Shown here in pieces: positions 4,734 through 54,805 of a stretch of 64,000 nt of DNA (positions are counted from its first letter, which is position 1; each line of letters starts with the position of its first letter). A program made the position numbers and the translations under genes. The notes below the pieces were generated by a model that was given only the letters and a program-made list of their open reading frames with translations, had not been told where the DNA came from and did no database searches. This DNA comes from Bdellovibrio sp. (lineage in GTDB: Bacteria; Bdellovibrionota; Bdellovibrionia; Bdellovibrionales; Bdellovibrionaceae), in NCBI GenBank assembly GCA_039594295.1, contig JBCNNR010000018.1:15619-79618 (forward strand). Direction: 5' to 3'.

Positions 4734-5354
4734 ATGTCATTGCTGGAAGCTCTTAAAAACCAAGATCAGATCATTATTCGTCAGCGCAAAGAGTTGGGGG
4801 AGTTACTTGGTTTTGAAACTCGCAATAAGTACGAAATTTGTGATCAGCGTGGCCAGGTTATTGGCTTCTGCGCGGAACAACAAAAGGGTTTATTAGGTCT
4901 TATGATCAGACAGTTTCTGGGGCATTGGCGCAGCTTTGAGTTGCATTTCTTTGATAGCCAACGTCAGCAGGTTTTTAATGTGAAACATCCCTTTAGAATC
5001 TTCTTTCAACGCCTGGAAGTCTTCACGGCCCGTGGGCAGTACATTGGAGCTCTTCAACAGCGCTTTGCGATCTTCAGAAAGAAATTCGATATCGAAACAC
5101 CGCAGGGTCGAGTGATCATGAATATGGAATCAGGCTTTTTGCAGTTCTGGACATTTCCGATCTTCAAGGGCTCCATGGAGGCCGCCGTCATCAGAAAAAA
5201 GTGGTCTGGTCTTTTAAAAGAGGCTTTTTTAGACGCTGATAATTTTCAAGTTGAGTTCGGTCGCGCTGAACTCAGCGAGGAAGAGCGCTCCCTGATCCTG
5301 GCCTCGGCGATTTTCATCGATCTTCAGTACTTTGAACGTAAAGCTGGTGATTAA
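4734..5354 (+). CDS. Phospholipid scramblase / tubby-C (LURP-one) family protein
   Basis: Q..E..E.L.GFETRNKYEI, RQF....R.F, KKWSGLLKEAF.DADNFQVEF, LILA..IFID..YFE patterns typical of the scramblase family. Start taken at MSLLEAL with AAGGA upstream. Confidence 0.75.
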   Translation: MSLLEALKNQDQIIIRQRKELGELLGFETRNKYEICDQRGQVIGFCAEQQKGLLGLMIRQFLGHWRSFELHFFDSQRQQVFNVKHPFRIFFQRLEVFTARGQYIGALQQRFAIFRKKFDIETPQGRVIMNMESGFLQFWTFPIFKGSMEAAVIRKKWSGLLKEAFLDADNFQVEFGRAELSEEERSLILASAIFIDLQYFERKAGD

Positions 5355-5434
5355 AATTCGTAAAATCGCCGGCTTTTTATTAAAATCTTCTCAAAATTCC
5401 TTCGCGGTGCGCCTTAAAAAGGGCGCCTAACGCT

Positions 5435-5485
5435 GGACACATCAAGGTTTGTCCGGACAAATCTTGGACAAAGTTTAGTCTGTCC
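5435..5485. promoter_or_regulatory. Tandem palindromic operator-like sites GGACA-N10-TGTCC (x2)
   Basis: GGACA-CATCAAGGTT-TGTCC at 5435-5454 and GGACA-AAGTTTAGTC-TGTCC at 5466-5485 (TTGGACA...TGTCCAA, 7-bp arms), plus a fifth half-site at 5455-5459; about 120-170 bp upstream of the 5606 gene. Confidence 0.65.
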
Positions 5486-5605
5486 AAAAATCAAAAATGA
5501 CCCTTTTATTTCAAATTTACTTTTCCCGCAGAAAAGTGGAAACACCGTCTCATTCGAAACGAACAAGTTTTTAAAACAAAAACACTTTTAACAAAGGGAA
5601 ATAAA

Positions 5606-6073
5606 ATGAAATTCGTAGCAATGATCGCTCTATTGGTTTCTTCTTCTGCATTCGCAGCTAACTACTCTGCTGACACTTCTTGGGAAGTTCTTGAAAAAGA
5701 CCCAACAATCAAAATCGAAGCTGGCACAGTATTCATGGGTTCTGCTATCGACTACACTTTCGTATGCGTAGACGGTGCTAACCTTCGCACTAAAAAACCA
5801 GTTGCTCAATACGATGTTATCACTATCGGTGACAACTACCGTAAAGAAGTTTACAAAGGTTCTAAATACTTGACTACTCCAATCAACTACACTCGCACTG
5901 CTTGGGAATGTGACTGGAATGTTAACGGTAAACACCGCACTTGCGCTGACAAAGTTATCTCTGGAACTTACGCTCTAACTGTAGACGCTAAAGTTTCTAA
6001 AGTTCTTAACACTAAAAACGGTTACGAAAAGTTCTTGTTCACAAAACAATTGAACGTACCAAACTGCCAGTAA
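5606..6073 (+). CDS. Secreted 155-aa hypothetical protein with 4 Cys, probably highly expressed
   Basis: Signal peptide MKFVAMIALLVSSSAFA/A; AAGGGA RBS; codons strongly skewed to TTC/AAC/TAC/GAC/ATC/GCT/ACT; followed by a hairpin. Confidence 0.85.
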   Translation: MKFVAMIALLVSSSAFAANYSADTSWEVLEKDPTIKIEAGTVFMGSAIDYTFVCVDGANLRTKKPVAQYDVITIGDNYRKEVYKGSKYLTTPINYTRTAWECDWNVNGKHRTCADKVISGTYALTVDAKVSKVLNTKNGYEKFLFTKQLNVPNCQ

Positions 6074-6091
6074 TTACTTGCTGTTAGTTAG

Positions 6092-6123
6092 GACTCCGGG
6101 GCTTGACACTAAGCCCCGAAGTC
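6092..6123 (+). terminator. Intrinsic terminator-like hairpin
   Basis: CGGGGCTT-GACACT-AAGCCCCG stem-loop about 20 bp after the 6073 stop, followed by GTTTGT. Confidence 0.6.
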
Positions 6124-6185
6124 GTTTGTCTCGTTGCATTGAACCCCGTCCTGAGATAGTGAGAGCCATCGATTGATGGGGAACA

Positions 6186-6977
6186 ATGGAAATTAACGTC
6201 GAACTAAACGAGCGCCAAACGGTAAGTTCAATTCCGGACCAAGTGTCCCAGGATATTGAGACTTACTTATTGCGTTTCAAGGACCCGAAAAAGGGTCTGA
6301 GTATGTTGGCGACGAAGTCCCAGATCCACGTAAAGACGCTGAACAGATTGCGCGAGAAATCTCACAATCCTAATTACTCCACTCTTTACAAACTTTATTC
6401 CTGCCTTTTGGACACCCAAGACATTGCACAGGTCGCAGCGAAAGCTCCTCCTTTAGTGCGTGAAAAGCTGGAAAAGACGGATCCTCAATTGAAGTCTTCG
6501 CCCCTTCATCGTTTCAATTTTGATCTGGCTGCAGATATGCAAAAAGATCCTTGTTTCGTGGAACTCTATGTTCTGTCTGAAACTCGCCCCTTCGATGCTA
6601 ATTTTGTCCAACAGAGATTCGGTTCTTATGGTCTTGGTGTGCTCGAACGCATGCTGGATCAAAAAGTTCTCCGACCCCTCGGGAATGGACTTTATGGTCA
6701 AGGCGAAGTACGGGCACATTTTTCTTCAGAGACAATTAAAGCCGTCGGAATGAAGCTGACGGAAAGATTCTTGAAACCGTCGAACTCTGATGTGAACTTT
6801 GCGAACTTAATGAACGTGTATTTTGAGTCCGTGAGTGAAGAAACATATCGCGAATGGATTTTGATCGAAGAACGTGCTTTTAACGAGCGCGTGAAGTTAC
6901 TTGAGAAGCCGAATGCTAAGGGGAAAATACCAGTTTTTGCATTTACGGCGATTGATACGCTTTTGGAGAATGAATAA
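6186..6977 (+). CDS. HTH transcription regulator, TIGR02147/DUF4423-like architecture
   Basis: N-terminal XRE-like HTH (LSMLATKSQIHVKTLNRL...PNYSTLYKLY); central winged-helix-like segment (FVQQRFGSYGLGVLERMLDQKVL); C-terminal beta-alpha-beta (VYFESVSEETYREW...VFAFTAIDTL) as in DUF4423. Recognised by pattern only. Confidence 0.55.
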   Translation: MEINVELNERQTVSSIPDQVSQDIETYLLRFKDPKKGLSMLATKSQIHVKTLNRLREKSHNPNYSTLYKLYSCLLDTQDIAQVAAKAPPLVREKLEKTDPQLKSSPLHRFNFDLAADMQKDPCFVELYVLSETRPFDANFVQQRFGSYGLGVLERMLDQKVLRPLGNGLYGQGEVRAHFSSETIKAVGMKLTERFLKPSNSDVNFANLMNVYFESVSEETYREWILIEERAFNERVKLLEKPNAKGKIPVFAFTAIDTLLENE

Positions 6978-7102
6978 TGAAACTATTTATCGCACTACTT
7001 ATCGCTTCTATTTTAGTTATTGGCGCTGGCCAAAGTGCATATGCAGGTGGTGGGTCTTCCGGTGGTTCTGGCAACCAACCTCCTCACGGAAACGGCAGAT
7101 AG
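6977..7102 (+). CDS. Small secreted peptide (41 aa; the frame continues past TAG to TGA at 7148-7150)
   Basis: Not in the ORF track. ATG overlaps the regulator stop (TAATG). MKLFIALLIASILVIGAGQSAYA/GGGSSGGSGNQPPHGNGR* has a classic Sec signal with an AYA cleavage site. Confidence 0.7.
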   Translation: MKLFIALLIASILVIGAGQSAYAGGGSSGGSGNQPPHGNGR

Positions 7103-7163
7103 CCGATTCCCTGGTCCGGTGACGGCAGAGAGCCGTTACCATTCAATTGATTTATAATTTTTC

Positions 7164-7194
7164 AAACCCGATGCAGTGATGTATCGGGTTTTTT
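7164..7194 (+). terminator. Intrinsic terminator
   Basis: AAACCCGATGCA-GTGA-TGTATCGGGTTT followed by further Ts; 13 nt after TGA at 7150. Confidence 0.8.
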
Positions 7195-7231
7195 GTTTTG
7201 TAGTGATCCCAAATACATTATGATTTTTTCT

Positions 7232-7819
7232 ATGAGAAAACTTCTATGCATCATAATGTTTATTCCTTTCTTAGGTTGTAAATCGCTGACCACGGATCAA
7301 AATCGGAGATCGGCCTCTGTGGTGACCGGTCACCAGTGCACAATCGCACCAGAAGAACAGCAGAAGCTTCTGGCTTTGGACTATAAGAGTTTTGATCAAA
7401 CGCTCCCAGATGGTGGTTGGAGAAGGTACGAGCAGGCAAACTGCTATGAATCGGCGGCAAATCTTATTGATCAATATGTCGCTCAAAATTTAAGCAAATT
7501 GCTTGAGTATCAGCGCCGGGGCATGACTTGGCATGCGGGACAGATGCATGCATTTGTGGGGCAAACGGAGCTCGCGGTTGCACGCTTCAAAAGTTCTTAT
7601 GACTTGAAAGTCGCACCAGAAGACACTTTTAAGTGGAATGCCTATGTGAAAGGCACGATCGCTTTCCTTGAACACGACATGAAATCTTTGATTGAAGCTC
7701 GTGATGAAATGGCCGCTGTGAGCGCGGATCAACGCAGTAAGAATTTTGCATTTATTGAAGCCTTTGTTCGTTGTTTCGACAAACCTTATAGCGAAGCGTA
7801 CAATACAAGCTGTAAGTGA
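7232..7819 (+). CDS. Hypothetical lipoprotein, helical/TPR-like
   Basis: ATG at 7232 gives MRKLLCIIMFIPFLG/C (lipobox-like); LALDY..FDQ...GGWR, WHAGQ and WNAYV.GT.AFL segments look like a conserved uncharacterised family. Confidence 0.65.
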   Translation: MRKLLCIIMFIPFLGCKSLTTDQNRRSASVVTGHQCTIAPEEQQKLLALDYKSFDQTLPDGGWRRYEQANCYESAANLIDQYVAQNLSKLLEYQRRGMTWHAGQMHAFVGQTELAVARFKSSYDLKVAPEDTFKWNAYVKGTIAFLEHDMKSLIEARDEMAAVSADQRSKNFAFIEAFVRCFDKPYSEAYNTSCK

Positions 7820-7867
7820 TACTGTTGCTTTGAATTGCAACAGTATTAAAACGGCTCCATTTACCAC

Positions 7868-7883
7868 TGGTACACGAATTGCT
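7868..7883 (+). promoter_or_regulatory. Sigma54-type promoter (-24/-12)
   Basis: TGGTACACGAATTGCT = GG-N10-GC with TGG...TTGC consensus, 56 bp upstream of the 7940 HTH gene; a 10-bp inverted repeat (ATACTGTTGC-N8-GCAACAGTAT, 7819-7846) lies just upstream. Confidence 0.6.
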
Positions 7884-7939
7884 TTTTATTCTTCATGAAC
7901 TTTGCAGGAGAGCAAAGTGACACTGAGGGGTAGGGGAAC

Positions 7940-8254
7940 GTGAGTCGAGTGCATCAAATTTTAAAATCTGCGTTAGAGCGCAGACAAAGCCTAAATCCAA
8001 AATATTCGTTACGCAATTTTGCAAAAGATCTCGCGGTCAATCCAAGTTTTGTCTCGCGCATTTTGACTGGCAAGCAGACCGTTCCCAGTTCTCGGCTGGA
8101 GCAAATCATTCAAACTCTGGAAATGGATTCGCATACGTCTAAGATGTTGAAAATTGAACTGATCAGAGACTATATGAAAGAGCTTGGTATCCACGAAAAA
8201 GAGCTCCTCAAAGAGGAGCTCTGGGAATCTGTCGTCGCAGAAGAGGTTACATGA
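7940..8254 (+). CDS. Stand-alone XRE-type HTH resembling the N-terminus of TIGR02147 proteins (no DUF4423 part)
   Basis: LERRQSLNPKYSLRNFAKDLAVNPSFVSRILTGKQ matches the NP.YSLR.FA..L...PS..S..L.GK pattern of that family; only 104 aa; stop overlaps the convergent S8 gene by 8 bp. Confidence 0.7.
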   Translation: MSRVHQILKSALERRQSLNPKYSLRNFAKDLAVNPSFVSRILTGKQTVPSSRLEQIIQTLEMDSHTSKMLKIELIRDYMKELGIHEKELLKEELWESVVAEEVT

Positions 8255-10796
8255 AGACGGCTTCACAGCGAATAGCAGCGGTGGGCGTCGTTTTCTTGCT
8301 GAAGATCGCCTTGGCTTCTTTTGTTTGAGTCGTGGCTTCTTTGGAGGTGCCCCATTTTTTAATACCTTCAGTCAGCATGCGAATAGTTACGACTGAAGAG
8401 TTCGGGCTGACCTTCGCCATGGCCATAACGTCTTTCACCACTTGTTCTGGCATCATGCTGGGGTGAAGGTAGACATCTTTCGAAGAAATATGCTCTTTGT
8501 GCATTTTCTGTACAAGATAATTTGCCAAGATGCCCGTGACTGTTGGAGTTGCCATCGAAGTGCCAGATAAATTCTGACGACCTAATGGCGCATCCAGGTG
8601 AAGTTTGATGGATATGGATTTTTTCAGGGATTCGATGACGCTTCCAGCTTCAAGAGCAAGGCCCTGTTTTCTGACCTTTTCCGTGAATTCAATATTTTCC
8701 TTATCATACGAACTACTAATAAGTAATTGAGCGGACGCTAAGCCATCAAATCCTTGAGCCACAAGTTTCGTCGAATTTGCGGAGTTCTTCGCTGGAACAG
8801 AAGAATAAATTTCTTCCCCTGTTGAAAAGATTTGTGGAACCTTGGGGTCGATTAAAATATTGGTAAATGCGGTGAGTGTCCCGTTGACGTTGACACTGCC
8901 CACGGCCAAAAGGTTTTTCACTGCGTTGTTCGGAGTGTCAGGAAGGTTTTTTCTTTTCGCAATTTCCAAGAAGCGAGTTGAAGTGATACCCACAGGGAAG
9001 CCGGCTTTTGTAACCCCGTCCAACCAACCACCATCATTGCCAGTGGCGACCACAAAAAGAGTTCCTGGTGCTTTGGTGTTCATGGTGTGACCGATTTTAT
9101 AGCGAACAAATTCAGAATATAGATCATTCACCATAGATTCATGTTTCTTTTCCAAACTGTGATCTTTTTGAAACGTGGTTCCAAGTGATACATTCGCCAG
9201 TTTCAATTGTTGCTCACCTGCGGCTTCGACCGCTTTTAGGACGTCGTTGATAAAGACAGCATCTAACGTGCCTTTCGGAGTGTTCAGGTAATCTTTAAGG
9301 ATACTTTCGGCGCGTTTGGGTGTCATTTTCATTCCCGAATACTCAGCGCTTACGACGTTCATCAACTCTGCGACGATGGGTAATTGCAGCCACTCGCTGA
9401 ACTCTGTGAGATACTGATCAACCAATGCTTTTCGTCTGATTGGCGCCAGGGCCACGGAAGATGTGGTGACGCGAATAGGAACGATGCGGATATTGGGGTT
9501 TTGATGGGCGATGACACCAGAGACGTGTGTCGCATGAATATTTCCGTTACTTTCTGAAGATAAATAAGGATGTTGTGTGCGGATCACATAGCGGCGCAAA
9601 TCGGATTTCATTTTTTTGTAGGCGGCAGGGTCGTTTTGCATATCTGTTAAACTTTGCGCAACGGCTTTAAGGTTATCAATATTGCGAATCGCTTTACGAA
9701 CGGCCTCTTTTTCTTCTTTTTTCAAAGAAGCGTCTTTTAAAAGGGCTTCATAGCGAGGTTTATTCTCTGAAATAATCGATTCAACCACTTCCAGTGGAGT
9801 TTTGTCATTCCAACGCGGACTGGATTTAATTTGTCGTTCGAATTGAACCAAAGGATCAAAACCGTCAGCTCCCCAGATGACCATGCTAAACGCCGCGTCC
9901 ATGGCTTTTAATGTTGCGGAGCGATTGATCGGAAGAATTGAATCAGTTTGCTGTATCTTTAAGTATGCAAGGAGATTTTCAAAGTTTTTGTTAAAACCTG
10001 TTTTTTGATCAGTGAATTCCAGGGAGCTTTTAAGTGCCTCATAAAAGCGTTTGGCATGTTCAATTCTTTCAGCATTTCGCATCATGTTCGGTGCGAAACG
10101 GTCGGGTCCTGTATAGAAGTCGAAGATTCGATTGTCTTTTATTTCTTGCTCAGTAAATGGGGTGACTTTGTCAACTTCGACCTGAAGTGCATCGATTGTA
10201 TAATTTCTTGTGAGGTCCAGAGCACCGCGAAGAGAAAGACTTTCTTTTGGAATTTTCGCAAAGAGACTTTGTTTTAGTTCCGGATCTGTTTGAAGTGCAT
10301 TATAGAAATGTTCCACGAAAGTATCGTTGGACTGTCTAATCAACTGCAATGGACTTTCTGCAGGTTCTACGATTAAGCCATTTTTTATTTCTTTGGCACC
10401 GAAAGCAAAAAGAGTTGGGTCCACCATGATGTGGGTTCCTGAAGGACCACCACCCATCACGTCGATACCTGCGCCAGCAACGCGACCATCGACGATGCGA
10501 TAATCAATTTGTGCTTGAAGATCTTTGTGCGCGATATCCACACCGCTGTCGATCACGCCGACGCGGAGTAAGTCTGTTCTGCGCGCATCTTTTTCCTGAC
10601 GGAGTACAATGGCATCGCGCTCTTTTTGTGAAAGCTCACGCACTTGGCTGCGCATCCACTCCAACTGGCGGGGGAATTTACCACTCCAAAACGAATCTCG
10701 GGGATCTTGCGAGGGTCCCGTTTTACAGGAAGGCAAGGCTAAGATAACGGCTAATGATAGCATCATAACGCGGCTTTTTGATTTCATTTTACTCAT
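8247..10796 (-). CDS. S8 (subtilisin-like) serine peptidase, lipoprotein, with a large insertion
   Basis: Catalytic motifs VGVIDSGVD, HATHVSG, VATGND, SGTSMATP; lipobox-like LALPS/C; about 300-aa helical insert between the Asp and His motifs. Confidence 0.9.
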   Translation of the reverse strand: MSKMKSKSRVMMLSLAVILALPSCKTGPSQDPRDSFWSGKFPRQLEWMRSQVRELSQKERDAIVLRQEKDARRTDLLRVGVIDSGVDIAHKDLQAQIDYRIVDGRVAGAGIDVMGGGPSGTHIMVDPTLFAFGAKEIKNGLIVEPAESPLQLIRQSNDTFVEHFYNALQTDPELKQSLFAKIPKESLSLRGALDLTRNYTIDALQVEVDKVTPFTEQEIKDNRIFDFYTGPDRFAPNMMRNAERIEHAKRFYEALKSSLEFTDQKTGFNKNFENLLAYLKIQQTDSILPINRSATLKAMDAAFSMVIWGADGFDPLVQFERQIKSSPRWNDKTPLEVVESIISENKPRYEALLKDASLKKEEKEAVRKAIRNIDNLKAVAQSLTDMQNDPAAYKKMKSDLRRYVIRTQHPYLSSESNGNIHATHVSGVIAHQNPNIRIVPIRVTTSSVALAPIRRKALVDQYLTEFSEWLQLPIVAELMNVVSAEYSGMKMTPKRAESILKDYLNTPKGTLDAVFINDVLKAVEAAGEQQLKLANVSLGTTFQKDHSLEKKHESMVNDLYSEFVRYKIGHTMNTKAPGTLFVVATGNDGGWLDGVTKAGFPVGITSTRFLEIAKRKNLPDTPNNAVKNLLAVGSVNVNGTLTAFTNILIDPKVPQIFSTGEEIYSSVPAKNSANSTKLVAQGFDGLASAQLLISSSYDKENIEFTEKVRKQGLALEAGSVIESLKKSISIKLHLDAPLGRQNLSGTSMATPTVTGILANYLVQKMHKEHISSKDVYLHPSMMPEQVVKDVMAMAKVSPNSSVVTIRMLTEGIKKWGTSKEATTQTKEAKAIFSKKTTPTAAIRCEAVFM

Positions 10797-48087: not shown

Positions 48088-49497
48088 ATGGACTTGAAAC
48101 CTGGTAGTCATATTCACTTAATGGGGATTTGCGGGACAGCGATGGCGTCCTTGGCAGGTCTTTTGAAAGATCGCGGTTACAAAATCACAGGCAGTGATAT
48201 GAACCCGTACCCACCGATGTCCACGCAGTTGGAAAGCCTGGGAATCAATATTCAAAAAGGTTATAAAGCCGAGAACCTTCATCCAAAACCAGACTTTGTA
48301 ATCGTTGGAAATGTTATTTCCGCAAATAACGAAGAAGCTCAAGAATTGGTGAAGCTGGGTATTCCCTACACGTCTTTGCCAAAAGCAATGGGCGAGTTCA
48401 TCATTGAAAATCGCGAAAGCATCGTGATCTCAGGAACTCACGGAAAAACCACAACAACTTCCATGATGGCTTGGGTTGCGGAAAACGCAGGTAAGAAGCC
48501 TGGTTTCTTAATCGGTGGTATTCCGAAGAACTTCTCACAAAGCTTTAAAAATCCAGAAGGCAACTTGTTCGTTATCGAAGGTGATGAATACGATACGGCT
48601 TTCTTTGATAAAGTTCCAAAGTTCGTTCATTACAAACCAAAACATGCCGTTTTGACATCGGTGGAATTTGACCATGCGGATATCTATAAAGATCTGCAAG
48701 CGGTGAAAGACTCCTTTGCAAAACTCATGCATTTGATTCCCGTCGATGGAACTTTGTTGGCGTGTGCAGAAGACGCCAACGTGATGGAGCTTCGTAAGCT
48801 TTGTAAGGCTAAAAACAATTTCACCTATGGCTTTAAATCCGATGCTGATTTCAGAGCGAAAGTTCTTTTCCAGAATGAAAAAGGCGTGGGTTTCGAAGTT
48901 CACCATAAAGGTGAAATCATGGGGCCTTACAACATGCAGATCACAGGAGATTATAACATCCTGAATGCGACAGCAGTTGTGGCGATGTCTAAAATTCTGG
49001 GCTTTTCAGAAAACAGAATTCAAATCGCGATGGAATCTTTTGAAGGCGTTAAGCGCCGCCAGGAGATCCTGGGGGAGCCGAATGGCATTCTGGTGATCGA
49101 AGACTTCGCCCATCATCCAACAGCGGTGCGTGAGACGGTCAAAGGCATTCAAAAGAAATACCCGGGTCGTAAAGTGTTCTCGGTCTTTGAGCCAAGAAGC
49201 GCAACATCTCGTCGTAAGGTTTTCCAAAAAGATTACGTGGAAGCTTTCAAAGGTTCTCACGAGGTCATGTTGGCCAAGGCCTTTGACCAATCAAAGATCG
49301 ATGCGGAAAATCGTTTTTCATCTCATGAATTGGTTTCTGATCTTAAATCCGCCGGCGTAACCGCGGAAGATTTCGACAGTGCTGATCAAATCGTGACGGC
49401 CCTAAAGACCCGCGCCAAACGCGGTGATGTGATCCTGATTATGTCCAATGGTGGTTTTGATGGGATCTACACGAAGCTTATGAAGGCACTTGAATAG
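48088..49497 (+). CDS. mpl: Murein peptide ligase Mpl (UDP-MurNAc:L-Ala-gamma-D-Glu-mDAP ligase)
   Basis: IH..GICGTAM..LA, SGTHGKTTTTSM, FLIGG.P.NF, EGDEYDTAFFDK.PKF.HY, EFDHADIY, .DFAHHPTA, FEPRS, .MSNGGF. Confidence 0.95.
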   Translation: MDLKPGSHIHLMGICGTAMASLAGLLKDRGYKITGSDMNPYPPMSTQLESLGINIQKGYKAENLHPKPDFVIVGNVISANNEEAQELVKLGIPYTSLPKAMGEFIIENRESIVISGTHGKTTTTSMMAWVAENAGKKPGFLIGGIPKNFSQSFKNPEGNLFVIEGDEYDTAFFDKVPKFVHYKPKHAVLTSVEFDHADIYKDLQAVKDSFAKLMHLIPVDGTLLACAEDANVMELRKLCKAKNNFTYGFKSDADFRAKVLFQNEKGVGFEVHHKGEIMGPYNMQITGDYNILNATAVVAMSKILGFSENRIQIAMESFEGVKRRQEILGEPNGILVIEDFAHHPTAVRETVKGIQKKYPGRKVFSVFEPRSATSRRKVFQKDYVEAFKGSHEVMLAKAFDQSKIDAENRFSSHELVSDLKSAGVTAEDFDSADQIVTALKTRAKRGDVILIMSNGGFDGIYTKLMKALE

Positions 49498-49509
49498 CAA
49501 AGCTCTTAG

Positions 49510-49539
49510 AAGCCCGGCGATATGCGCCCGGGCTTTTTT
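49510..49539. terminator. Bidirectional intrinsic terminator
   Basis: AAGCCCGG-N10-CCGGGCTT-TTTT between the convergent mpl and ABC genes. Confidence 0.7.
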
Positions 49540-50878
49540 ATCGGTGGCGTACTTCAACAATCACTTTCTCTTTGCTGATCTTATTCAGAATTTCATTTAT
49601 CTTTAAAATATTTTCCTGATCCAGATTCGCGTCCCATTCGTCCAGCAACAGATATTTGTTATCTAATAAAGCTGCGTACTCAATATGCTTTAGCATCTTT
49701 TGTCCTGTAGATCCTTCTTGAGCTCCATCAATTTCGAATTGTGGATGAGCTGGTATATAGAATGAGGATTCCAAGGACTCATTTAAATGAAGCATTAATG
49801 TTGATTTTCCAGATCCATTTGAGCCTCTGATTTGAATTCGTGTTGGACCAGAATGGGAAATATTTTTAGAAAGATCTTCGAGGCTGCTATATACCTGATC
49901 TTCAACGCTGATGTTTTTAATTGAAATGCGCGACGATAAATTTGGTTCGTTCAGAATGGCGTTGTCTTGCATGGTTTTGAATTTCGCTTCAAATGAAACC
50001 AAAGACGACACGGTTTGAAAGATGGTTCTAAATGTCGCTAGCATATTTAGTTGACGAGGAATCGCCGCTAAAAGCGCAGCCATCACCTTGACATCACCAT
50101 TGTGACGACTAATGACGACAAAGATTGCGATAATTACCGGAACACTAGCGATAAAAGTTAAGGCTGCGACCATCGTCTCACTCATCAGGGATGAATGGCG
50201 GGATTTTATCTTGGCGTTATTAAAATGCAGATTGAAATTCTTGAGGTAGTTCGCGACAACTTCAGAGTTTTTGAAAAAGATATTTTCCCAGGCTTTAAAT
50301 AAATAGCTCTCAAGTTTGCTTCTTGATTGCTGTTCGGATTCCGCAGCAGACTTTGCCATCTTTTGTAGATATTTAAACGCCGAAAAGGAAAGTAAGCCGG
50401 CGATGATATATGCCGGAATAAACGAAGTATCGAGCGTCAGTCCAATAGCCAAAACACCCAGACCGATGGAAAGAACGAAAGAAAATAGGTCCAAACCCAA
50501 AAAGATAATTACTGCCAAATAGTTCTCGGCTTCAGAGCCAATACAAGAAGTGAAGAGTTCTTTTTGATGTTTTTCCTGCCAGATGCCAGGTCTTTGAGAC
50601 TTGCTTAACAAGTTTTCTTCCAGAAATTTTTTATAAGCGGAAAATCCTAAATTTGTCTCGAGTGGACGTTGGATTAAACCAAAGAACGGTGTAAGTACAT
50701 GGCATATAAGGGCAATCGCTAGCCATATAATCAAGGCGTTCTGGTTTCCCAGGGCGAGCCCCGCTTGTATCAAGGCAAAGGTGCTTGTAACAGCAACAAG
50801 TTGTTGGCCAAGAGTCACTCCCATCAGTTTAAATTGGGAGACTTTATCGACATATTTTAAAATGGATGGAGAAAACAT
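49538..50878 (-). CDS. ABC exporter, fused TMD plus a very short ATPase domain
   Basis: N-terminal TM helices, E...RSKL-type coupling helix, Walker A GSNGSGKST, signature-like GSTGQ, Walker B LLLDEWDANLD, H-loop EVRH. Confidence 0.8.
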   Translation of the reverse strand: MFSPSILKYVDKVSQFKLMGVTLGQQLVAVTSTFALIQAGLALGNQNALIIWLAIALICHVLTPFFGLIQRPLETNLGFSAYKKFLEENLLSKSQRPGIWQEKHQKELFTSCIGSEAENYLAVIIFLGLDLFSFVLSIGLGVLAIGLTLDTSFIPAYIIAGLLSFSAFKYLQKMAKSAAESEQQSRSKLESYLFKAWENIFFKNSEVVANYLKNFNLHFNNAKIKSRHSSLMSETMVAALTFIASVPVIIAIFVVISRHNGDVKVMAALLAAIPRQLNMLATFRTIFQTVSSLVSFEAKFKTMQDNAILNEPNLSSRISIKNISVEDQVYSSLEDLSKNISHSGPTRIQIRGSNGSGKSTLMLHLNESLESSFYIPAHPQFEIDGAQEGSTGQKMLKHIEYAALLDNKYLLLDEWDANLDQENILKINEILNKISKEKVIVEVRHR

Positions 50879-51468
50879 TAGTTAGCCTCCTGGACAAGCC
50901 ATTCGGAAACAATGGTATAGCGATTCCAATTTTTAACTTTGGTTACACTGTGCCAGTTTGTATTGTCTGCAAAAAACAGCACCATTCTGTTTTCCAGTGG
51001 TTGAATAATTTTGGAGTCGTCTATTTGGGTTGCGATGTCATCTTGATGCAATAATAGTTCGCCACCGGATGCTGGATTCCAGTTTGGAGAAAGATAGTAG
51101 ATGCAGACGAGTGAACGTCCGTCTTCCTGATCATCGATATGAGGTGGCATTGGTGGAGAGTTGGGTGTCATCATTCGTAATTGAACGAGGCCCTCTTCGT
51201 AAATTTCAAGTTTCTGGTGAACTGTTTCTTCCAGAAAGGATTTAAATTTATCTCCTAGGAAAAATTTGGCCAGATCAAGATTAGGAAGAAACATAAAGTT
51301 CAGATCAAAGGAATCATTTTCTCTTTTCTGATAACCGTCCGCAACGGAGCAAAGATGCTTTTGGATAGCTTTGAAGTCTTTCTTAGGAAGAAAGTTGTCG
51401 ATTACAAAATGCTTCCAGGGAGTTTCAAATTGATCTACGGACGTCTTTTTAAGAAATGATGTGTTCAT
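50878..51468 (-). CDS. 2OG-Fe(II) oxygenase (prolyl-hydroxylase/Tpa1-like)
   Basis: HID facial-triad motif, .IYYLS..W....GGEL.L, P..NR.V.F, WHSV, R.T; coupled to the ABC gene (TAATG). Confidence 0.88.
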   Translation of the reverse strand: MNTSFLKKTSVDQFETPWKHFVIDNFLPKKDFKAIQKHLCSVADGYQKRENDSFDLNFMFLPNLDLAKFFLGDKFKSFLEETVHQKLEIYEEGLVQLRMMTPNSPPMPPHIDDQEDGRSLVCIYYLSPNWNPASGGELLLHQDDIATQIDDSKIIQPLENRMVLFFADNTNWHSVTKVKNWNRYTIVSEWLVQEAN

Positions 51469-51488
51469 GGATTGCTCTGGTTTGAAGT

Positions 51489-51524
51489 AAAAAAAAAGGG
51501 AGAGGAGGGGTTTTCTCTCCCTTT
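51489..51524 (-). terminator. Terminator/attenuator hairpin between the peptide gene and the oxygenase
   Basis: Minus strand AAAGGGAGAG-N10-CTCTCCCTTT followed by 6 more Ts. Confidence 0.75.
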
Positions 51525-51532
51525 GAAAGAAG

Positions 51533-51676
51533 TTAGTTTTTCTTTTTAGATTTGCGCGAATTCATGATGACTTGAATTTCCGCGGGGATGCTGGATTTCT
51601 CCAAAACTGCGCGAACGCCAGTTCCAGATTTGTTTCTCTCAGCGATAATGTTTTCAAAGATTTCGAATTTGTTCAT
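51533..51676 (-). CDS. 47-aa peptide, candidate RiPP precursor
   Basis: Not in the ORF track. AAAAGGAGATACC-ATG; MNKFEIFENIIAERNKSGTGVRAVLEKSSIPAEIQVIMNSRKSKKKN*; own promoter-like site and own terminator. Confidence 0.8.
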   Translation of the reverse strand: MNKFEIFENIIAERNKSGTGVRAVLEKSSIPAEIQVIMNSRKSKKKN

Positions 51677-51720
51677 GGTATCTCCTTTTGCCGTGATTGG
51701 CGTTGTTGATAAGGAGATAA

Positions 51721-51736
51721 AGCAGGAATAGTGCCG
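51721..51736 (-). promoter_or_regulatory. Sigma54-type promoter for the peptide gene
   Basis: Minus strand CGGCACTATTCCTGCT (GGCAC...TGC, GG-N10-GC), 44 bp upstream of ATG 51676. Confidence 0.55.
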
Positions 51737-51832
51737 CCGATTATCGGTGTTTAAAGTAATATATTAGAGATGGACTCGCGGGAAGTTCTAAATTATTGGA
51801 TTTGAGACTGGGTTTTCGGATCTCTGGTCGGA

Positions 51833-52939
51833 TTAGACCGAGGCGATGAATTTAACAGTCACAGTTGTTGGGAAGTAATAGCCTTTGCGATCGCGCAGAA
51901 TAAAGCTCGGGGAGTTGGAGTCGGGCTCAAGCAGGGTGCGCAGGCGTTTGATGGATACATAGATTAAATTATCGTGGACCTCAGGATCGTAAGGGTAATC
52001 CCAAACTTTTTCGATCAAATAGGATTTCGTAAATCGATGTCCCTGGTTTTGTGCGAACAGTTTTAAAAGGTCGAACAGGATATGTTGATTTTTAAAATCA
52101 ACATATCCTTTGTTGTGGGCTTTTACTTTAAAATTATTCGAATCGATGATTAGATCCGGATCGGATGTGACGTGATTCTCTTTGACGAGTTGAGCTTTCA
52201 CGCTGCGAAGTCTTGTCGAACCTTCGCTGTCCATGCCCTTCATCGCAAGCGAACGATAAATCGCCGCTTCATTGCGTTTGCCTTGAGCCTCGTAAACCGC
52301 TGCCATTTGTACAAGAATATACACGATCAAATAGTGCAGAGAGTTCTGTTGGGCTTTCTCGTAAGCCTTCCAGATCGCATCCAAAGCATCGTCAGCTCGT
52401 TTTTCATCCAAGAAGATATGACTTTTTACGACCAGGCAGCTGGTGTGAATCTCTTCCAGTTTTAACTCTTGAGTCAGAAGCAAAGCCTTGTCGAGGTACT
52501 TTAACGCCTCGATCGGGTTTTCTTTCATTGTGACGATAGCTAACTCCTGAAGAAGTCTGGAAACTGTCTCCAGATCCTGCGCCTGAGTGCACTCATGCAG
52601 GGCCTTTTGGAAATAGTCCTTGGCTTGAGAGTTTTCACCTAAAGCCATTTTCCATAAACCGATATTATGAAGGACTTGACCGTATGTTTCCGGCGAGGAG
52701 TGTTGCTTCTCGTAAACAAGGAGTTTATTGAAGTGCTTATTAAATTGCTCGAGTTTTCCCAGTTCCGAACTTGCCTGAATCAAAAAGCGCACGCCAAATA
52801 GCCAGCTTTGTAAATCTCCGATGGCTTCTGCTTCAAAACAGATTTTTTCGGAGTTTTCACAAGCTTCCTGGTAGTGGCCGCGCTGATAATTCAGCTTGGC
52901 AAGATTGATGTTGGAACTCATTTCACTCAACATGCGCAT
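51833..52939 (-). CDS. TPR-repeat plus C-terminal winged-helix (OmpR/Trans_reg_C-like) regulator
   Basis: Several TPR-like helical pairs (LHNIGL..MALGE...A..YFQKAL); C-terminal LL.L......G..F.K..LIEKVW........NLIYV.IKRLR..LE...........G.Y. Confidence 0.85.
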   Translation of the reverse strand: MRMLSEMSSNINLAKLNYQRGHYQEACENSEKICFEAEAIGDLQSWLFGVRFLIQASSELGKLEQFNKHFNKLLVYEKQHSSPETYGQVLHNIGLWKMALGENSQAKDYFQKALHECTQAQDLETVSRLLQELAIVTMKENPIEALKYLDKALLLTQELKLEEIHTSCLVVKSHIFLDEKRADDALDAIWKAYEKAQQNSLHYLIVYILVQMAAVYEAQGKRNEAAIYRSLAMKGMDSEGSTRLRSVKAQLVKENHVTSDPDLIIDSNNFKVKAHNKGYVDFKNQHILFDLLKLFAQNQGHRFTKSYLIEKVWDYPYDPEVHDNLIYVSIKRLRTLLEPDSNSPSFILRDRKGYYFPTTVTVKFIASV

Positions 52940-53131
52940 CTAAATAGATATTTGTCGGTGAATCGTCAAGATCTTACAGAAAGTGAAATGAGAAAATGTT
53001 CCGAAATCCCAATATATAGGCATGACCACTCGTGACGTCGCTCTCAAATTGAGACGCGTTGGACTCATATTTATCTTCTGTTTAGTTTTTCCGATACGTA
53101 AGGCGAGTTTTTAACGATTAAAGGTGGGACA

Positions 53132-54805
53132 ATGAAGCAGAGTTCATGGTTTAAGGGGATTAAAGGAAAGCTATTGGTCGCGGCGTTGTTGCCTCTGATT
53201 GGCTTTGCAGTTCTGGGATTTGTTTCTTTCACGGGACTTTCTTCCATCAGTGGAATGCTGGGATCCTCTTACACTCATATTATTCCAAATGTCGATGCAT
53301 TGGGACAGATTGAAGGCGGTCGTGCGCGCATTGGTCAGTACTTATGGGGAGCCATCGCGAATTTGAATTTCGAAAAACGTCGTAATATTTATATCGAAAA
53401 ATTAGAGCAGGCATTGAAAGAGTATAATGATGCGGTTGCGGCCTACGAAGCAGCTCCAGATCTTGAGGGCGAGGAGCAGATCTATAAACCCATGAAGGAC
53501 AGTCACGCAAGCTACGTGGCTCACGTGGAGGAATTCGTTCAGCTTCTAAAGACACCGACTCCTGAGAACTACGAAAAGGTTCGTGCGGCGGCGGCTGAGG
53601 GTGCGTATCAGCAGGAATCGGTTCAAATTAAAGGGACTGTTGGAAAAATCACAGCGATGTATACGGACGCCGTGAAGAAAAATAATCTGGAGCAAAAAGC
53701 CGAGACTGAAAAAGTCTTTAAGATGCTGGTGGGCATTGGTCTGGCTTGTAGTTTTGGTGTGTTTTTCGCATTGATAACTATTGCCTCTCGTTTGAGTAAA
53801 AATGTTTCTGAAGTGGTCAATCAGCTTTCTGATTCATGCAATCAGGTGAATATGGCTATCTCGCAGTTGAGCGAAGCAGGACAAAGCTTATCGCAGTCTT
53901 CGACAACGTCAGCGGCTTCGTTAGAGGAGACCGTGGCGGCATTGGAAGAAATGAGTTCAATGGTTTCCATGAATTCCGACAATGCGAAGCAAGCTGCGAG
54001 TTTATCGCAGGCTTCCCGTTCTGCGGCTGAAGACGGTGAGCAGGAGATGCAAAAACTGGTCACTTCTATGCACGGAATTTCTCAGTCTTCTAAAAAGATC
54101 GAAGAGATTATCAATGTCATCGACGATATCGCCTTTCAAACGAATTTGTTGGCCTTGAATGCGGCGGTGGAAGCTGCGCGCGCGGGAGAACAAGGCAAAG
54201 GCTTTGCCGTGGTGGCTGAAGCTGTTCGCAGTTTGGCGCAAAGATCCGCAGTCGCTGCAAAAGACATCAATGGTTTAATCAAAGACTCTGTTAATCAAGT
54301 CGACGATGGATCTAAGATTGCAGATAAAGCCGGTGAGGTTCTTAAGAATATTGTGAACTCGATTAAGAAAGTCTCTGATTTGAATAACGAGATCTCAGCG
54401 GCCAGCTCCGAACAAACGACAGGCATTCAGCAGATCAGCAAAGCCATGAATCAGTTGGATCAAAGTTCCCAAGCGAATGCGGCGTCCTCCGAAGAAATCG
54501 CGGCGACATCAGAGGAAATGGCAGCGCAATCAAAACAAATGTACAACGTCGTGATCACGCTATCGAATGTGGTGATGGGTGGTCACAGCGAAGGCATCGC
54601 AATGGAGTCCCAATCCGAAGCGGTAGAAAACAAGAAGGTTTCTGTCAAAGGTAAGCCTGTTATGTCTGTGCCTAAGAAAGCAGCAAATAATGTCGTAAAA
54701 TTTAAACCACCTGCGAAAGCGGGTAATTCCGGAGAAGTCAAAGCTTCTGAATTGATTCCTTTTGACGACGATACGCGAAAAGTCGGTAATACCGACGGTT
54801 TTTAA
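53132..54805 (+). CDS. Methyl-accepting chemotaxis protein (4HB periplasmic sensor)
   Basis: TM1, four-helix periplasmic region, TM2, [35 protein letters not shown] signalling hairpin, C-terminal NTDGF. Confidence 0.96.

What the first reader, a model, noticed from the sequence alone, without database searches (positions are those of the whole stretch)
49538..52939. RiPP-like or modified-peptide signalling cassette: TPR-wHTH regulator, 47-aa peptide, 2OG-Fe(II) oxygenase, ABC exporter
Seen in sequence: four co-oriented genes inserted between mpl and an MCP gene; the oxygenase and ABC genes look visibly more AT-rich than the backbone. The unannotated 47-aa ORF has a strong AGGAG RBS, a sigma54-type site upstream and a terminator hairpin downstream. 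The oxygenase and exporter are translationally coupled. Established knowledge: precursor gene, stem-loop, tailoring enzyme and exporter is the standard RiPP layout, giving excess precursor transcript; 2OG oxygenases hydroxylate peptide residues; TPR regulators often sense peptides. Inference: a minimal RiPP class whose only tailoring enzyme is a prolyl-hydroxylase-like oxygenase. The peptide has no signal peptide, no Cys and no double-glycine motif; it has one Pro, several Asn/Lys/Arg and a basic tail (NSRKSKKKN). It could be an antimicrobial or an autoinducer for the TPR regulator.
Basis: partly seen in the sequence, partly recalled or inferred. Interest (0 to 1): 0.8.

Follow-up and report, generated by a model that had tools for sequence, protein, structure and literature searches.

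The report
Peptide, hydroxylase and exporter module
A three-gene unit in some Bdellovibrio predatory bacteria (a 47-residue peptide, a prolyl-hydroxylase-like oxygenase and an unusually compact ABC exporter, behind a sigma-54 promoter) is real, conserved and uncharacterised, and probably makes an exported hydroxylated peptide; the neighbouring TPR regulator is not part of it.

Summary
Most of the sequence observations hold. The 47-aa ORF, its AAGGAG ribosome-binding site, a sigma-54 -24/-12 element, a hairpin with a T-run after the ORF, a TAATG overlap between oxygenase and ABC genes, and low GC are all present.

Comparative data change the anatomy. Only three genes (peptide, oxygenase, ABC; about 49530-51832) form the inserted module. 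The TPR-wHTH regulator and the MCP gene are backbone genes. Three related genomes have mpl-REG-MCP-mutS with no module, and the regulator family occurs in all 41 genomes searched across the order.

The trio recurs in 12 of 37 Bdellovibrio genomes of the first survey, and in further genomes and metagenome contigs. It sits at different chromosomal sites, always in the same order.
- 25 distinct peptides share an invariant Gly20 and Pro31, and dN/dS is 0.04-0.18.
- 12 of 13 loci have the sigma-54 element; 11 of 13 have the hairpin.
- The oxygenase keeps HxD...H plus Arg, and its nearest solved relatives are prolyl hydroxylases.
- The ABC protein has a peptide-exporter fold but a nucleotide-binding domain of only about 125 residues.

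Best reading (about 0.5): a minimal RiPP-like system making a hydroxylated, exported peptide. The modified residue, the export and the biological role are all unproven. No publication or curated family describing the module was found.

The parts
51757..51766 (-). Palindrome TAATATATTA about 21 nt upstream of the -24 element; candidate operator, activator or IHF site
   Evidence: Read. CCAATATATTGG and CAATATATTG occur in the closest loci, and AATATAT-like sequences at a similar place in most others. Function is inferred only.
51721..51736 (-). Sigma-54-type promoter element CGGCAC-N5-CTGCT (-24 GG, -12 GC)
   Evidence: 12 of 13 loci have a GG-N10-GC site, 11 of them matching at least 8 of 11 consensus positions, 44-67 nt before the peptide ATG. 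The background rate for such sites is 3e-4 per position in the window. rpoN is present in the genome.
51690..51701 (-). 5'UTR mini-hairpin GCC-AATCAC-GGC between promoter and RBS
   Evidence: The stem changes on both sides (GGG...CCC) with loop AATCA kept in L043, L045 and L047. Function unknown.
51682..51687 (-). Ribosome-binding site AAGGAG of the peptide gene
   Evidence: An AAGGAG-like site precedes the ORF in the other loci.
51533..51676 (-). 47-aa peptide gene (MNKFEIFENIIAERNKSGTGVRAVLEKSSIPAEIQVIMNSRKSKKKN), the presumed substrate or precursor
   Evidence: It lies immediately upstream of the oxygenase gene in all loci. There are 25 distinct homologues with invariant G20 and P31. dN/dS is 0.04-0.18. 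The model gives helix 3-17, loop 18-31, helix 32-45. No Pfam or NCBIfam family matches.
51489..51524 (-). Hairpin (10-bp stem) plus T-run between the peptide and oxygenase genes; likely attenuating terminator
   Evidence: dG -14.6, z -4.9. A stable hairpin with a different sequence occurs in 11 of 13 loci, z from -2.7 to -5.2.
50878..51468 (-). 196-aa 2OG-Fe(II) oxygenase of the prolyl-hydroxylase-like branch
   Evidence: PF13640 scores 53.5 bits and PF13661 47.1 bits, both above cut-off. H110, D112, H173 and R183 are invariant. The best PDB sequence hits are OGFOD1 (8e-13), PHD/EGLN and P4H. The YhhC hit of 47 bits is far below its cut-off of 150.
49538..50878 (-). 446-aa compact ABC exporter (6 TM helices plus a nucleotide-binding domain of about 125 aa), translationally coupled to the oxygenase gene
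   Evidence: TAATG overlap. Walker A, S-x-G-[EQ], LLDEWDANLD and EVRH are invariant. The AF2 model has pLDDT 79.6. Foldseek top hits are the PCAT1 core, MsbA, Sav1866, McjD and ComA.
51833..52939 (-). TPR + OmpR-type wHTH regulator: an adjacent backbone gene, NOT part of the module
   Evidence: Orthologues lie directly next to mpl, with no trio, in G022, G017 and G004. The family occurs in 41 of 41 genomes of the order. GC is 0.443, backbone-like. No regulator lies beside the trio in 9 other loci.

Best explanation
A self-contained accessory three-gene module of about 2.3 kb has been inserted between the mpl terminator and the 3' end of a resident regulator gene.

Proposed mechanism:
- A sigma-54 promoter transcribes a highly translated 47-aa peptide gene.
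- A hairpin with a T-run after the peptide gene lets only part of the transcripts continue into the translationally coupled oxygenase and ABC genes. This would give an excess of peptide over enzyme and exporter.
- The prolyl-hydroxylase-like 2OG-Fe(II) oxygenase hydroxylates the peptide. The conserved loop G20-P31 between two predicted helices is the likely contact region. The invariant Pro31 is the leading candidate site in the Bdellovibrio family.
- The compact ABC exporter moves the modified, cationic, leaderless peptide across the inner membrane.

Shown here: the gene content, its conservation as a unit, purifying selection, the conserved promoter, hairpin and coupling, intact catalytic and ATPase motifs, and the exporter fold.

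Inferred: that the peptide is the oxygenase's substrate, the modified residue, that the ABC protein exports it, and any role as a signal or antimicrobial.
For: - The trio has the same order in all 12 first-survey genomes (one of them with the oxygenase gene mostly deleted) and in G411, G350, G203 and metagenome contigs, at unrelated chromosomal sites.
- The insert has the lowest GC of any 2.3-kb stretch of the window, and empty sites exist.
- Peptide dN/dS is 0.04-0.18. G20 and P31 are invariant among 25 distinct sequences.
- The model places the conserved segment in a loop between two helices.
- The oxygenase catalytic residues are invariant, and its nearest solved relatives all hydroxylate peptidyl proline.
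- Its nearest curated family is a RiPP Asp hydroxylase, YhhC (PMC12186529).
- The ABC protein keeps its ATPase motifs, and its best fold matches include the peptide exporters PCAT1, McjD and ComA.
- The sigma-54 element and the hairpin are conserved, and the oxygenase and ABC genes are translationally coupled.
- A more distant genus has the oxygenase and ABC homologues in a larger cluster with an aKG-HExxH-like peptide hydroxylase relative and a second oxygenase.
- Distant oxygenase relatives are again preceded by a small ORF carrying the same G-V-[RQ]-x-x-[LI] motif.
Against:
- No leader or core boundary, double-glycine motif, protease, C39 domain or RRE was found.
- No membrane-fusion or outer-membrane partner lies in the module, so export beyond the periplasm is unexplained.
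- The peptide is conserved along its whole length, is single-copy and looks like a small helix-loop-helix protein. G20 and P31 could therefore be structural: a turn and a helix N-cap.
- Pro31 is not kept in the distant small ORFs, which share only the G-V-R/Q motif. Those pairs lack an ABC gene.
- One genome lost the oxygenase gene but keeps intact peptide and ABC ORFs.
- The shortened nucleotide-binding domain has no characterised precedent that I could find.
Confidence: 0.5

Rival explanations
1. The 47-aa product is a small intracellular helix-loop-helix protein. Its hydroxylation by the oxygenase, dependent on O2, Fe and 2OG, would serve as a regulatory or sensing switch, as with PHD-type hydroxylases. 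Alternatively it is a partner subunit of the oxygenase. The ABC protein would then transport something else.
For: - The peptide is conserved along its whole length under strong purifying selection, and is more conserved than its enzymes among close relatives: 91% against 78-84%.
- It is predicted as two helices and a loop.
- It is single-copy, with no leader or cleavage features.
- Peptide-oxygenase pairs exist without any ABC gene in distant lineages.
- The nearest solved relatives, PHD and OGFOD1, modify folded cellular proteins.
Against: - In the Bdellovibrio loci and in contig L099 the ABC exporter gene is fused into the operon and close-set or overlapping with the oxygenase gene.
- The precursor, hairpin, enzyme, exporter layout gives an excess of peptide, which fits a product better than a regulator.
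- The module is patchy and mobile within the genus, as accessory secreted-product loci usually are.
Confidence: 0.22
2. The peptide is an unmodified or only optionally modified leaderless cationic antimicrobial or membrane-active peptide. The ABC protein would be its exporter and self-immunity pump, and the oxygenase a dispensable accessory.
For: - The peptide has net charge about +5 and a Lys-rich tail, with helical segments and no leader.
- An ABC exporter gene is adjacent.
- A natural variant lacks the oxygenase gene but keeps intact peptide and ABC ORFs.
- The trio diverges much faster than its flanks at the same mpl locus: 48-50% against 91-95% identity in L041.
Against: - The peptide is quite hydrophilic and lacks the Trp-rich hydrophobic face typical of leaderless bacteriocins.
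- The oxygenase is retained, with intact catalytic residues, in all but one locus.
- Peptides are highly conserved among close relatives rather than diversifying.
Confidence: 0.13
3. This is the first reader's four-gene cassette: the TPR-wHTH regulator senses the modified peptide as an autoinducer and controls the operon.
For: The regulator is adjacent and co-oriented in the window and in three close relatives. TPR domains can bind peptides; this rests on general knowledge.
Against: - Regulator orthologues (67-78% identity) sit next to mpl without the trio in G022, G017 and G004. In G022 and G017 the trio is elsewhere in the genome, and G004 has none.
- The regulator family is in every genome of the order searched.
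- No homologue lies within 6 kb of the trio in 9 other loci.
- The regulator has backbone GC.
- The peptide promoter is sigma-54 type. Such promoters require an AAA+ enhancer-binding protein, and this regulator has no such domain.
Confidence: 0.05
4. The peptide is a scaffold or precursor for a small molecule, or the oxygenase acts on a small metabolite that the ABC protein exports, with the peptide only a co-transcribed accessory.
For: Only two residues are invariant. No protease or leader logic is visible. Many PF13640 proteins have unknown substrates.
Against: - No protease, ligase or other gene needed to release or build a small molecule is in the module.
- The peptide-oxygenase adjacency is kept across very distant relatives, and a shared peptide motif is kept in most of them.
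Confidence: 0.07

Closest known systems
RiPP pathways with Fe(II)/2OG hydroxylases as tailoring enzymes (YhhC in triceptides, CinX/DurX in lanthipeptides, SmaO in graspetides)
   Same: A small ribosomal peptide gene lies next to a 2OG-Fe(II) oxygenase and an ABC exporter. The oxygenase's best curated-family hit is YhhC. A hairpin separates the precursor gene from the downstream genes.
   Different: In those systems the oxygenase is secondary to a class-defining enzyme (radical SAM, lanthionine synthetase or ATP-grasp), and the precursors have leaders (PMC12186529). Here no other tailoring enzyme, leader motif, protease or RRE is present. The YhhC score of 47 bits is far below its cut-off of 150.
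Protein prolyl hydroxylases of the PF13640/PF13661 branch (OGFOD1/Tpa1, PHD/EGLN, collagen-type P4H)
   Same: These are the best solved-structure sequence matches. The HxD...H triad and the 2OG-binding Arg are present. The candidate substrate has an invariant Pro in a predicted loop.
   Different: Those enzymes act on unlinked cellular proteins (ribosomal protein uS12, HIF, collagen; general knowledge). Here the presumed substrate is encoded immediately upstream and an exporter follows. Proline as the target is unproven, and the Pro is absent in distant peptide homologues.
Peptide-exporting ABC transporters (PCAT1, ComA, McjD)
   Same: The predicted six-helix type IV exporter fold and half-transporter layout match these. 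NCBIfam gives weak hits to peptide and bacteriocin exporters.
   Different: There is no C39 peptidase domain. The nucleotide-binding domain is only about 125 residues, with most of the helical subdomain missing. No Pfam ABC_membrane hit was found, and ABC_tran scores below its cut-off.
RRNPP-type peptide quorum sensing (a TPR regulator senses an exported peptide)
   Same: A TPR-containing transcription factor gene lies next to a small peptide gene and an exporter in this window.
   Different: The regulator has a C-terminal OmpR-type wHTH. It is a backbone gene unlinked to the trio in other genomes, and it cannot activate a sigma-54 promoter by the known mechanism.

Membership tests
RiPP biosynthetic gene cluster (generic definition) | Ribosomally encoded precursor peptide gene clustered with its modifying enzyme | tested here: met
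   The small ORF lies immediately upstream of the oxygenase gene in every locus, and it is under purifying selection.
RiPP biosynthetic gene cluster (generic definition) | Post-translational modification of the precursor demonstrated | not testable with these tools
   This needs mass spectrometry of the co-expressed peptide and oxygenase.
RiPP biosynthetic gene cluster (generic definition) | Leader (or follower) and core regions with a recognition element and proteolytic release | tested here: not met
   There is no GG or other cleavage motif, no protease or C39 domain, and no RRE/PqqD-like domain in the module. Conservation is spread over the whole peptide.
Triceptide YhhABC-type system | Radical SAM/SPASM cyclophane-forming enzyme next to the precursor | tested here: not met
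   The module holds only peptide, oxygenase and ABC genes, and the neighbours are housekeeping genes.
Triceptide YhhABC-type system | Oxygenase reaches the NF041706 (YhhC) equivalog cut-off | tested here: not met
   47.4 bits against a cut-off of 150.
2OG-Fe(II) oxygenase, prolyl-hydroxylase-like (PF13640/PF13661) | Scores above the Pfam gathering threshold | tested here: met
   53.5 and 47.1 bits against a threshold of 27.
2OG-Fe(II) oxygenase, prolyl-hydroxylase-like (PF13640/PF13661) | HxD...H iron triad and a basic 2OG-binding residue | tested here: met
   H110, D112, H173 and R183 are invariant in 12 close sequences, and the equivalent residues in 18 close and distant sequences.
2OG-Fe(II) oxygenase, prolyl-hydroxylase-like (PF13640/PF13661) | Hydroxylates peptidyl proline | not testable with these tools
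   The evidence is only indirect: the nearest solved relatives are prolyl hydroxylases and P31 is invariant. However, YhhC-type relatives hydroxylate Asp, and distant peptide homologues lack the Pro.
ABC exporter (type IV fold half-transporter) | Six-helix exporter transmembrane domain | tested here: met
   The AF2 model shows long TM helices. All top Foldseek hits are type IV exporters with probability 1.00, although TM-scores are only 0.4-0.5.
ABC exporter (type IV fold half-transporter) | Canonical nucleotide-binding domain of about 200-240 residues with Walker A/B, signature, Q-, D- and H-loops | tested here: inconclusive
   Walker A, the signature-like S-x-G-[EQ], Walker B plus D-loop (LLDEWDANLD) and the H-loop (EVRH) are invariant. 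The domain is only about 125 residues, the Q-loop Gln is not invariant, and PF00005 scores 23.3 against a cut-off of 25.
Peptidase-containing ABC transporter (PCAT) | N-terminal C39 peptidase domain and a double-glycine leader in the cargo | tested here: not met
   The protein starts directly with TM1, and no C39 hit was found. The peptide has no GG motif.
Sigma-54-dependent promoter | GG and GC doublets 10 nt apart matching TGGCAC-N5-TTGCW, with rpoN in the genome | tested here: met
   The site CGGCAC-N5-CTGCT is conserved in position in 12 of 13 loci against a background of 3e-4 per position. rpoN was found. The transcription start and the dependence on sigma-54 were not tested.

The most novel reading that the evidence does not exclude
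The module is the founding example of a minimal RiPP class in which a prolyl-hydroxylase-like 2OG-Fe(II) oxygenase is the only, class-defining tailoring enzyme. It would act on a leaderless peptide of about 35-50 residues that a new type of compact ABC exporter secretes. Predatory Bdellovibrio would use it, under sigma-54 control, as a signal or a weapon. Related peptide-oxygenase pairs, with a methyltransferase or with HExxH hydroxylases, would extend the class to other phyla.
Probability: 0.35. Interest if true: 0.75.

Novelty: new variant of a known kind. Interest (0 to 1): 0.6.

Why it matters
- **Organism.** Bdellovibrio are studied as living antibiotics, yet little is known of their peptide signals or secreted small products. 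A conserved, horizontally moving, sigma-54-driven peptide module is a concrete and easily testable candidate.
- **RiPP biochemistry.** A pathway whose only tailoring step is a P4H-like hydroxylation of a leaderless peptide would be a new minimal architecture. It would also supply a genetically linked enzyme-substrate pair for a large family of 2OG oxygenases with unknown substrates.
- **Transporter.** The exporter belongs to a widespread, uncharacterised family of ABC half-transporters with a nucleotide-binding domain about half the usual size. That is of interest for transporter mechanism in its own right.

Tried and rejected
- **Regulator as part of the cassette.** Rejected on empty sites and on its distribution.
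- **Known families for the peptide.** Pfam, NCBIfam and PADLOC gave nothing for it.
- **Known defence system.** PADLOC gave only generic domain-level hits for the other proteins.
- **Known RNA families.** Rfam over 49300-53300 gave only a chance-level hit.
- **Homology of the 53-aa ORF in the distant genus G329.** There is a motif resemblance (VPDELLKLL), but the profile E-value is 4.8, so it is left as a candidate only.
- **Deducing the modified residue from conservation.** Only G20 and P31 are invariant in the Bdellovibrio family. Only the G-V-[RQ] motif is shared with distant pairs. No Asp, Asn, Arg or Lys column is invariant, so this is unresolved.
- **Earlier notes of this scan.** Nothing relevant.
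- **Literature.** Searches for Bdellovibrio/RiPP/oxygenase, YhhC, and hydroxyproline RiPPs found no description of this module.

Full report
**What is in the sequence**

- REG, 51833-52939, 368 aa;
- PEP, 51533-51676, 47 aa;
- OXY, 50878-51468, 196 aa;
- ABC, 49538-50878, 446 aa.

Pfam gives TPR repeats plus a C-terminal OmpR-type Trans_reg_C domain for REG. It gives nothing for PEP, and 2OG-FeII_Oxy_3 and 2OG-FeII_Oxy_4 above threshold for OXY. For ABC it gives only sub-threshold ABC and P-loop hits.

NCBIfam adds two things. OXY has a weak hit to YhhC, at 47 bits against a cut-off of 150. ABC has weak full-length alignments to peptide, bacteriocin and lipid A exporters.

The finer features are all present:
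- AAGGAG lies 5 nt before the PEP start.
- CGGCAC-TATTC-CTGCT lies at 51721-51736.
- A 10-bp hairpin with a T-run lies at 51489-51524, with dG -14.6 and z -4.9 against shuffles.
- The OXY stop and the ABC start overlap as TAATG, with GGAGG just upstream.
- PEP, OXY and ABC have GC of 0.39-0.40 against 0.457 for the window. The 2.3-kb stretch 49530-51832 is lower than every one of 309 sliding windows of that size. REG, at 0.443, looks like backbone.

**What is inserted and what is backbone**

The organism is a Bdellovibrio, judging from the named relatives.

In three genomes of the genus (G022, G017, G004) the backbone runs purB-like gene, LD-carboxypeptidase, beta-lactamase-like gene, mpl, REG, MCP, mutS, with no trio. 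There, mpl and REG converge on one shared terminator hairpin. G022 and G017 carry the trio elsewhere in their chromosomes. G004 has none.

REG-like proteins occur in all 41 genomes searched across the order. No REG homologue lies within 6 kb of the trio in nine other loci.

In the window lineage (also G027, G019, G411) the trio sits between the mpl terminator and the REG stop codon. The inserted unit is therefore PEP, OXY and ABC with its own promoter. REG and the MCP gene are residents.

A sigma-54 promoter needs an AAA+ enhancer-binding protein; this is established knowledge. REG has no such domain. The proposed link between regulator and peptide is not supported.

**The trio is a conserved unit**

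A six-frame search of 37 genomes of the genus found OXY in 12, and a remnant of it in one more. In all of these an ABC homologue follows directly, and a small ORF of 34-49 aa with an AAGGAG-like site precedes.

Further examples come from G411, G350 and G203 and from metagenome contigs. The flanking genes differ from case to case: malQ and lamB, polA and eno, mpl and mutS. No regulator, protease or membrane-fusion gene travels with the trio.

At the mpl locus of G016 the trio is only 48-50% identical to the window's, while mpl and mutS are 91-95% identical. This points to an accessory, exchangeable module.

**The peptide**

A profile search of 5.8 billion proteins found 19 clusters, all annotated as hypothetical and all without a Pfam domain. 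The named ones are from Bdellovibrio. Together with the loci this gives 25 distinct sequences.
- M1, G20 and P31 are invariant.
- R14, L25 and I30 are nearly invariant.
- The C-terminal tail is usually Lys-rich.

Among close relatives the ORF shows 4-10.5 synonymous against 1-4.5 non-synonymous differences, giving dN/dS of 0.04-0.18. It is therefore a protein-coding gene under constraint. It is more conserved (91%) than OXY (78%) or ABC (84%) in the same genome pair.

AlphaFold2 with 21 sequences predicts helix 3-17, a loop 18-31 that holds the conserved G-V-R...L....I-P segment, and helix 32-45. Mean pLDDT is 76 and pTM is low.

The genome holds a single copy.

**The oxygenase**

H110, D112, H173 and R183 are invariant in 12 close sequences. 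The equivalent residues are invariant in 18 close and distant sequences.

A profile search of PDB sequences gives human OGFOD1 first (8e-13). HIF prolyl hydroxylases and collagen-type P4Hs follow.

The nearest curated bacterial family is YhhC. The literature describes YhhC as an Asp beta-hydroxylase of triceptide RiPPs (PMC12186529).

The enzyme is thus an intact peptide or protein hydroxylase of the P4H-like branch. Its residue specificity cannot be read from sequence.

In 1.84 billion representative proteins, only 27 clusters reach E<1e-30.

**The ABC protein**

All 13 orthologues keep these motifs:
- Walker A, G-x-N-G-x-G-K-S-T;
- a signature-like S-x-G-[EQ];
- Walker B with the D-loop, LLDEWDANLD;
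- a terminal EVRH, the H-loop.

The whole nucleotide-binding domain spans only about residues 320-446.

The AF2 model (pLDDT 79.6) shows six long transmembrane helices and a minimal RecA-like core. All top Foldseek hits are type IV ABC exporters, led by the PCAT1 core and including MsbA, Sav1866, McjD and ComA. Probability is 1.00 and TM-scores are 0.4-0.5.

Relatives of similar length (440-476 aa) number 616 at E<1e-5. They occur in Chlamydiales, Calothrix and Oligoflexales, in unrelated neighbourhoods without an oxygenase. The compact exporter is therefore a wider family, and one branch of it is tied to this peptide system.

**Regulatory anatomy**

A GG-N10-GC site lies 44-67 nt before the peptide ATG in 12 of 13 loci. 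Eleven of those sites match at least 8 of the 11 specified consensus positions. Such sites occur at 3e-4 per position in the window. The genome encodes sigma-54.

A stable hairpin of differing sequence follows the peptide stop codon in 11 of 13 loci, mostly with a T-rich tail. The OXY and ABC genes overlap or are close-set in every locus.

Two further conserved elements have no known role:
- an AATATATT-type palindrome about 21 nt upstream of the -24 element;
- a 5'UTR mini-hairpin whose stem changes on both sides (GCC/GGC to GGG/CCC) while its AATCA loop is kept.

**Wider relatives**

- In another genus of the family (G329), an OXY relative and an ABC relative sit in a larger cluster. It also holds a TP-methylase-like gene, two HExxH proteins and a second P4H-like oxygenase. 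One HExxH protein hits the aKG-HExxH peptide beta-hydroxylase model just below its cut-off. This resembles an elaborated peptide-modification cluster.
- All five more distant oxygenase relatives whose contigs could be read are directly preceded by a small ORF: 59-66 aa in four, and 38 aa (not called as a gene) in L099. In four of the five this ORF matches the peptide profile (E from 1.6e-6 to 0.014 within those loci). It carries the same G-V-[RQ]-x-x-[LI] motif.
- Two of these loci have a class-I methyltransferase upstream and no ABC gene. One, L099, is a full trio.
- The Pro is not kept in the distant ORFs that lack an ABC gene.
- One Bdellovibrio genome (G007) has lost about 510 bp of the oxygenase gene while the peptide and ABC ORFs stay intact.

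**Interpretation**

The most economical reading is a minimal RiPP-like system. The peptide is made in excess. The oxygenase hydroxylates it at or near the conserved loop, with Pro31 the leading but unproven candidate. The ABC protein then exports it.

I put this at about 0.5. The linkage, the layout, the intact motifs and the exporter fold are shown. The enzyme-substrate relation, the modified residue and export are inferred.

The main rival, at about 0.22, is that the peptide is a small intracellular helix-loop-helix protein. Its hydroxylation would be regulatory, or it would be a partner of the enzyme. Supporting points:
- it is conserved along its whole length;
- it has no leader or protease logic;
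- ABC-less pairs exist;
- G20 and P31 could be structural, forming a turn and a helix cap.

**Comparison with known systems, and novelty**

The module works like RiPP pathways that use Fe(II)/2OG hydroxylases. It fails the membership tests for the triceptide YhhABC system: it has no radical SAM enzyme, and OXY scores below the equivalog cut-off. It also fails the tests for PCAT-type export, having no C39 domain and no GG leader.

No curated family and no paper in the searchable library describes the peptide, the trio or the compact exporter. I class it as a new variant of a known kind. It could prove to be a new RiPP class if the oxygenase is shown to be the sole tailoring enzyme.

**Limits**

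- Co-folding of the peptide with the oxygenase was not possible.

Noticed in passing
window 49538-50878 (- strand); relatives P0216-P0289: The ABC protein belongs to a widespread uncharacterised family of compact half-transporters of 440-476 aa. Their nucleotide-binding domain is only about 125 residues yet keeps the Walker A, signature-like, Walker B/D-loop and H-loop motifs. Members occur in Chlamydiales, Calothrix and Oligoflexales, in neighbourhoods without any 2OG oxygenase.
   Followed up: partly
window 51757-51766 (- strand): The palindrome TAATATATTA lies about 21 nt upstream of the sigma-54 -24 element. Perfect CCAATATATTGG and CAATATATTG occur in the closest loci, and AATATAT-like sequences in most others. 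It may be an activator, IHF or operator site.
   Followed up: partly
window 51690-51720 (- strand): The 5'UTR mini-hairpin GCC-AATCAC-GGC appears in other loci as GGG-AATCAC-CCC or GGGAA-TGA-TCCC, so both stem sides change while the loop is kept. A CTCC just after the -12 element can also pair with the GGAG of the RBS in several loci. This may be translational control. No Rfam match was found.
   Followed up: partly
L048 (G007) about 5990-6160, compared with L082: This is a natural deletion of about 510 bp that removes nearly all of the oxygenase gene while the peptide and ABC ORFs stay intact. A near-identical metagenome contig has the intact oxygenase gene.
   Followed up: yes
L077 (G329) 5111-9958: A high-GC relative of another genus has an expanded cluster. 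It holds a candidate 53-aa ORF, a TP_methylase-like gene, a P4H-like oxygenase, an HExxH protein, the compact ABC homologue, an aKG-HExxH-like protein (TIGR04267, 32.9 bits against a cut-off of 40) and a second oxygenase.
   Followed up: partly
L095, L097, L098, L100 (metagenome contigs): Distant oxygenase relatives are each preceded by a 59-66 aa ORF with the motif G-V-[RQ]-x-x-[LI] near its N-terminus. Two also have a class-I methyltransferase upstream. Some lie near mobile-element genes (TniQ, integrase), and none has an ABC gene.
   Followed up: partly
window 49498-49537; L088-L090 mpl/REG junction: In genomes without the trio, mpl and the regulator gene converge on a single shared bidirectional terminator hairpin. 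In the window this hairpin stays with mpl, and its T-run abuts the ABC stop codon. The regulator is left without an obvious terminator before the peptide promoter.
   Followed up: yes
window 52077-52109 (inside the regulator coding sequence): A perfect 15-bp inverted repeat with a 3-nt loop (AGGATATGTTGATTT-TTA-AAATCAACATATCCT) lies within the REG ORF. This is unusual for coding sequence.
   Followed up: no
alignment A1 and peptide alignments (L043, L045, L047 against the others): The short peptides of 34-35 aa, which lack the N-terminal helix, go with oxygenases that carry an extra N-terminal segment of about 10 residues and a longer C-terminus. This may be co-variation between the peptide and enzyme termini.
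   Followed up: no
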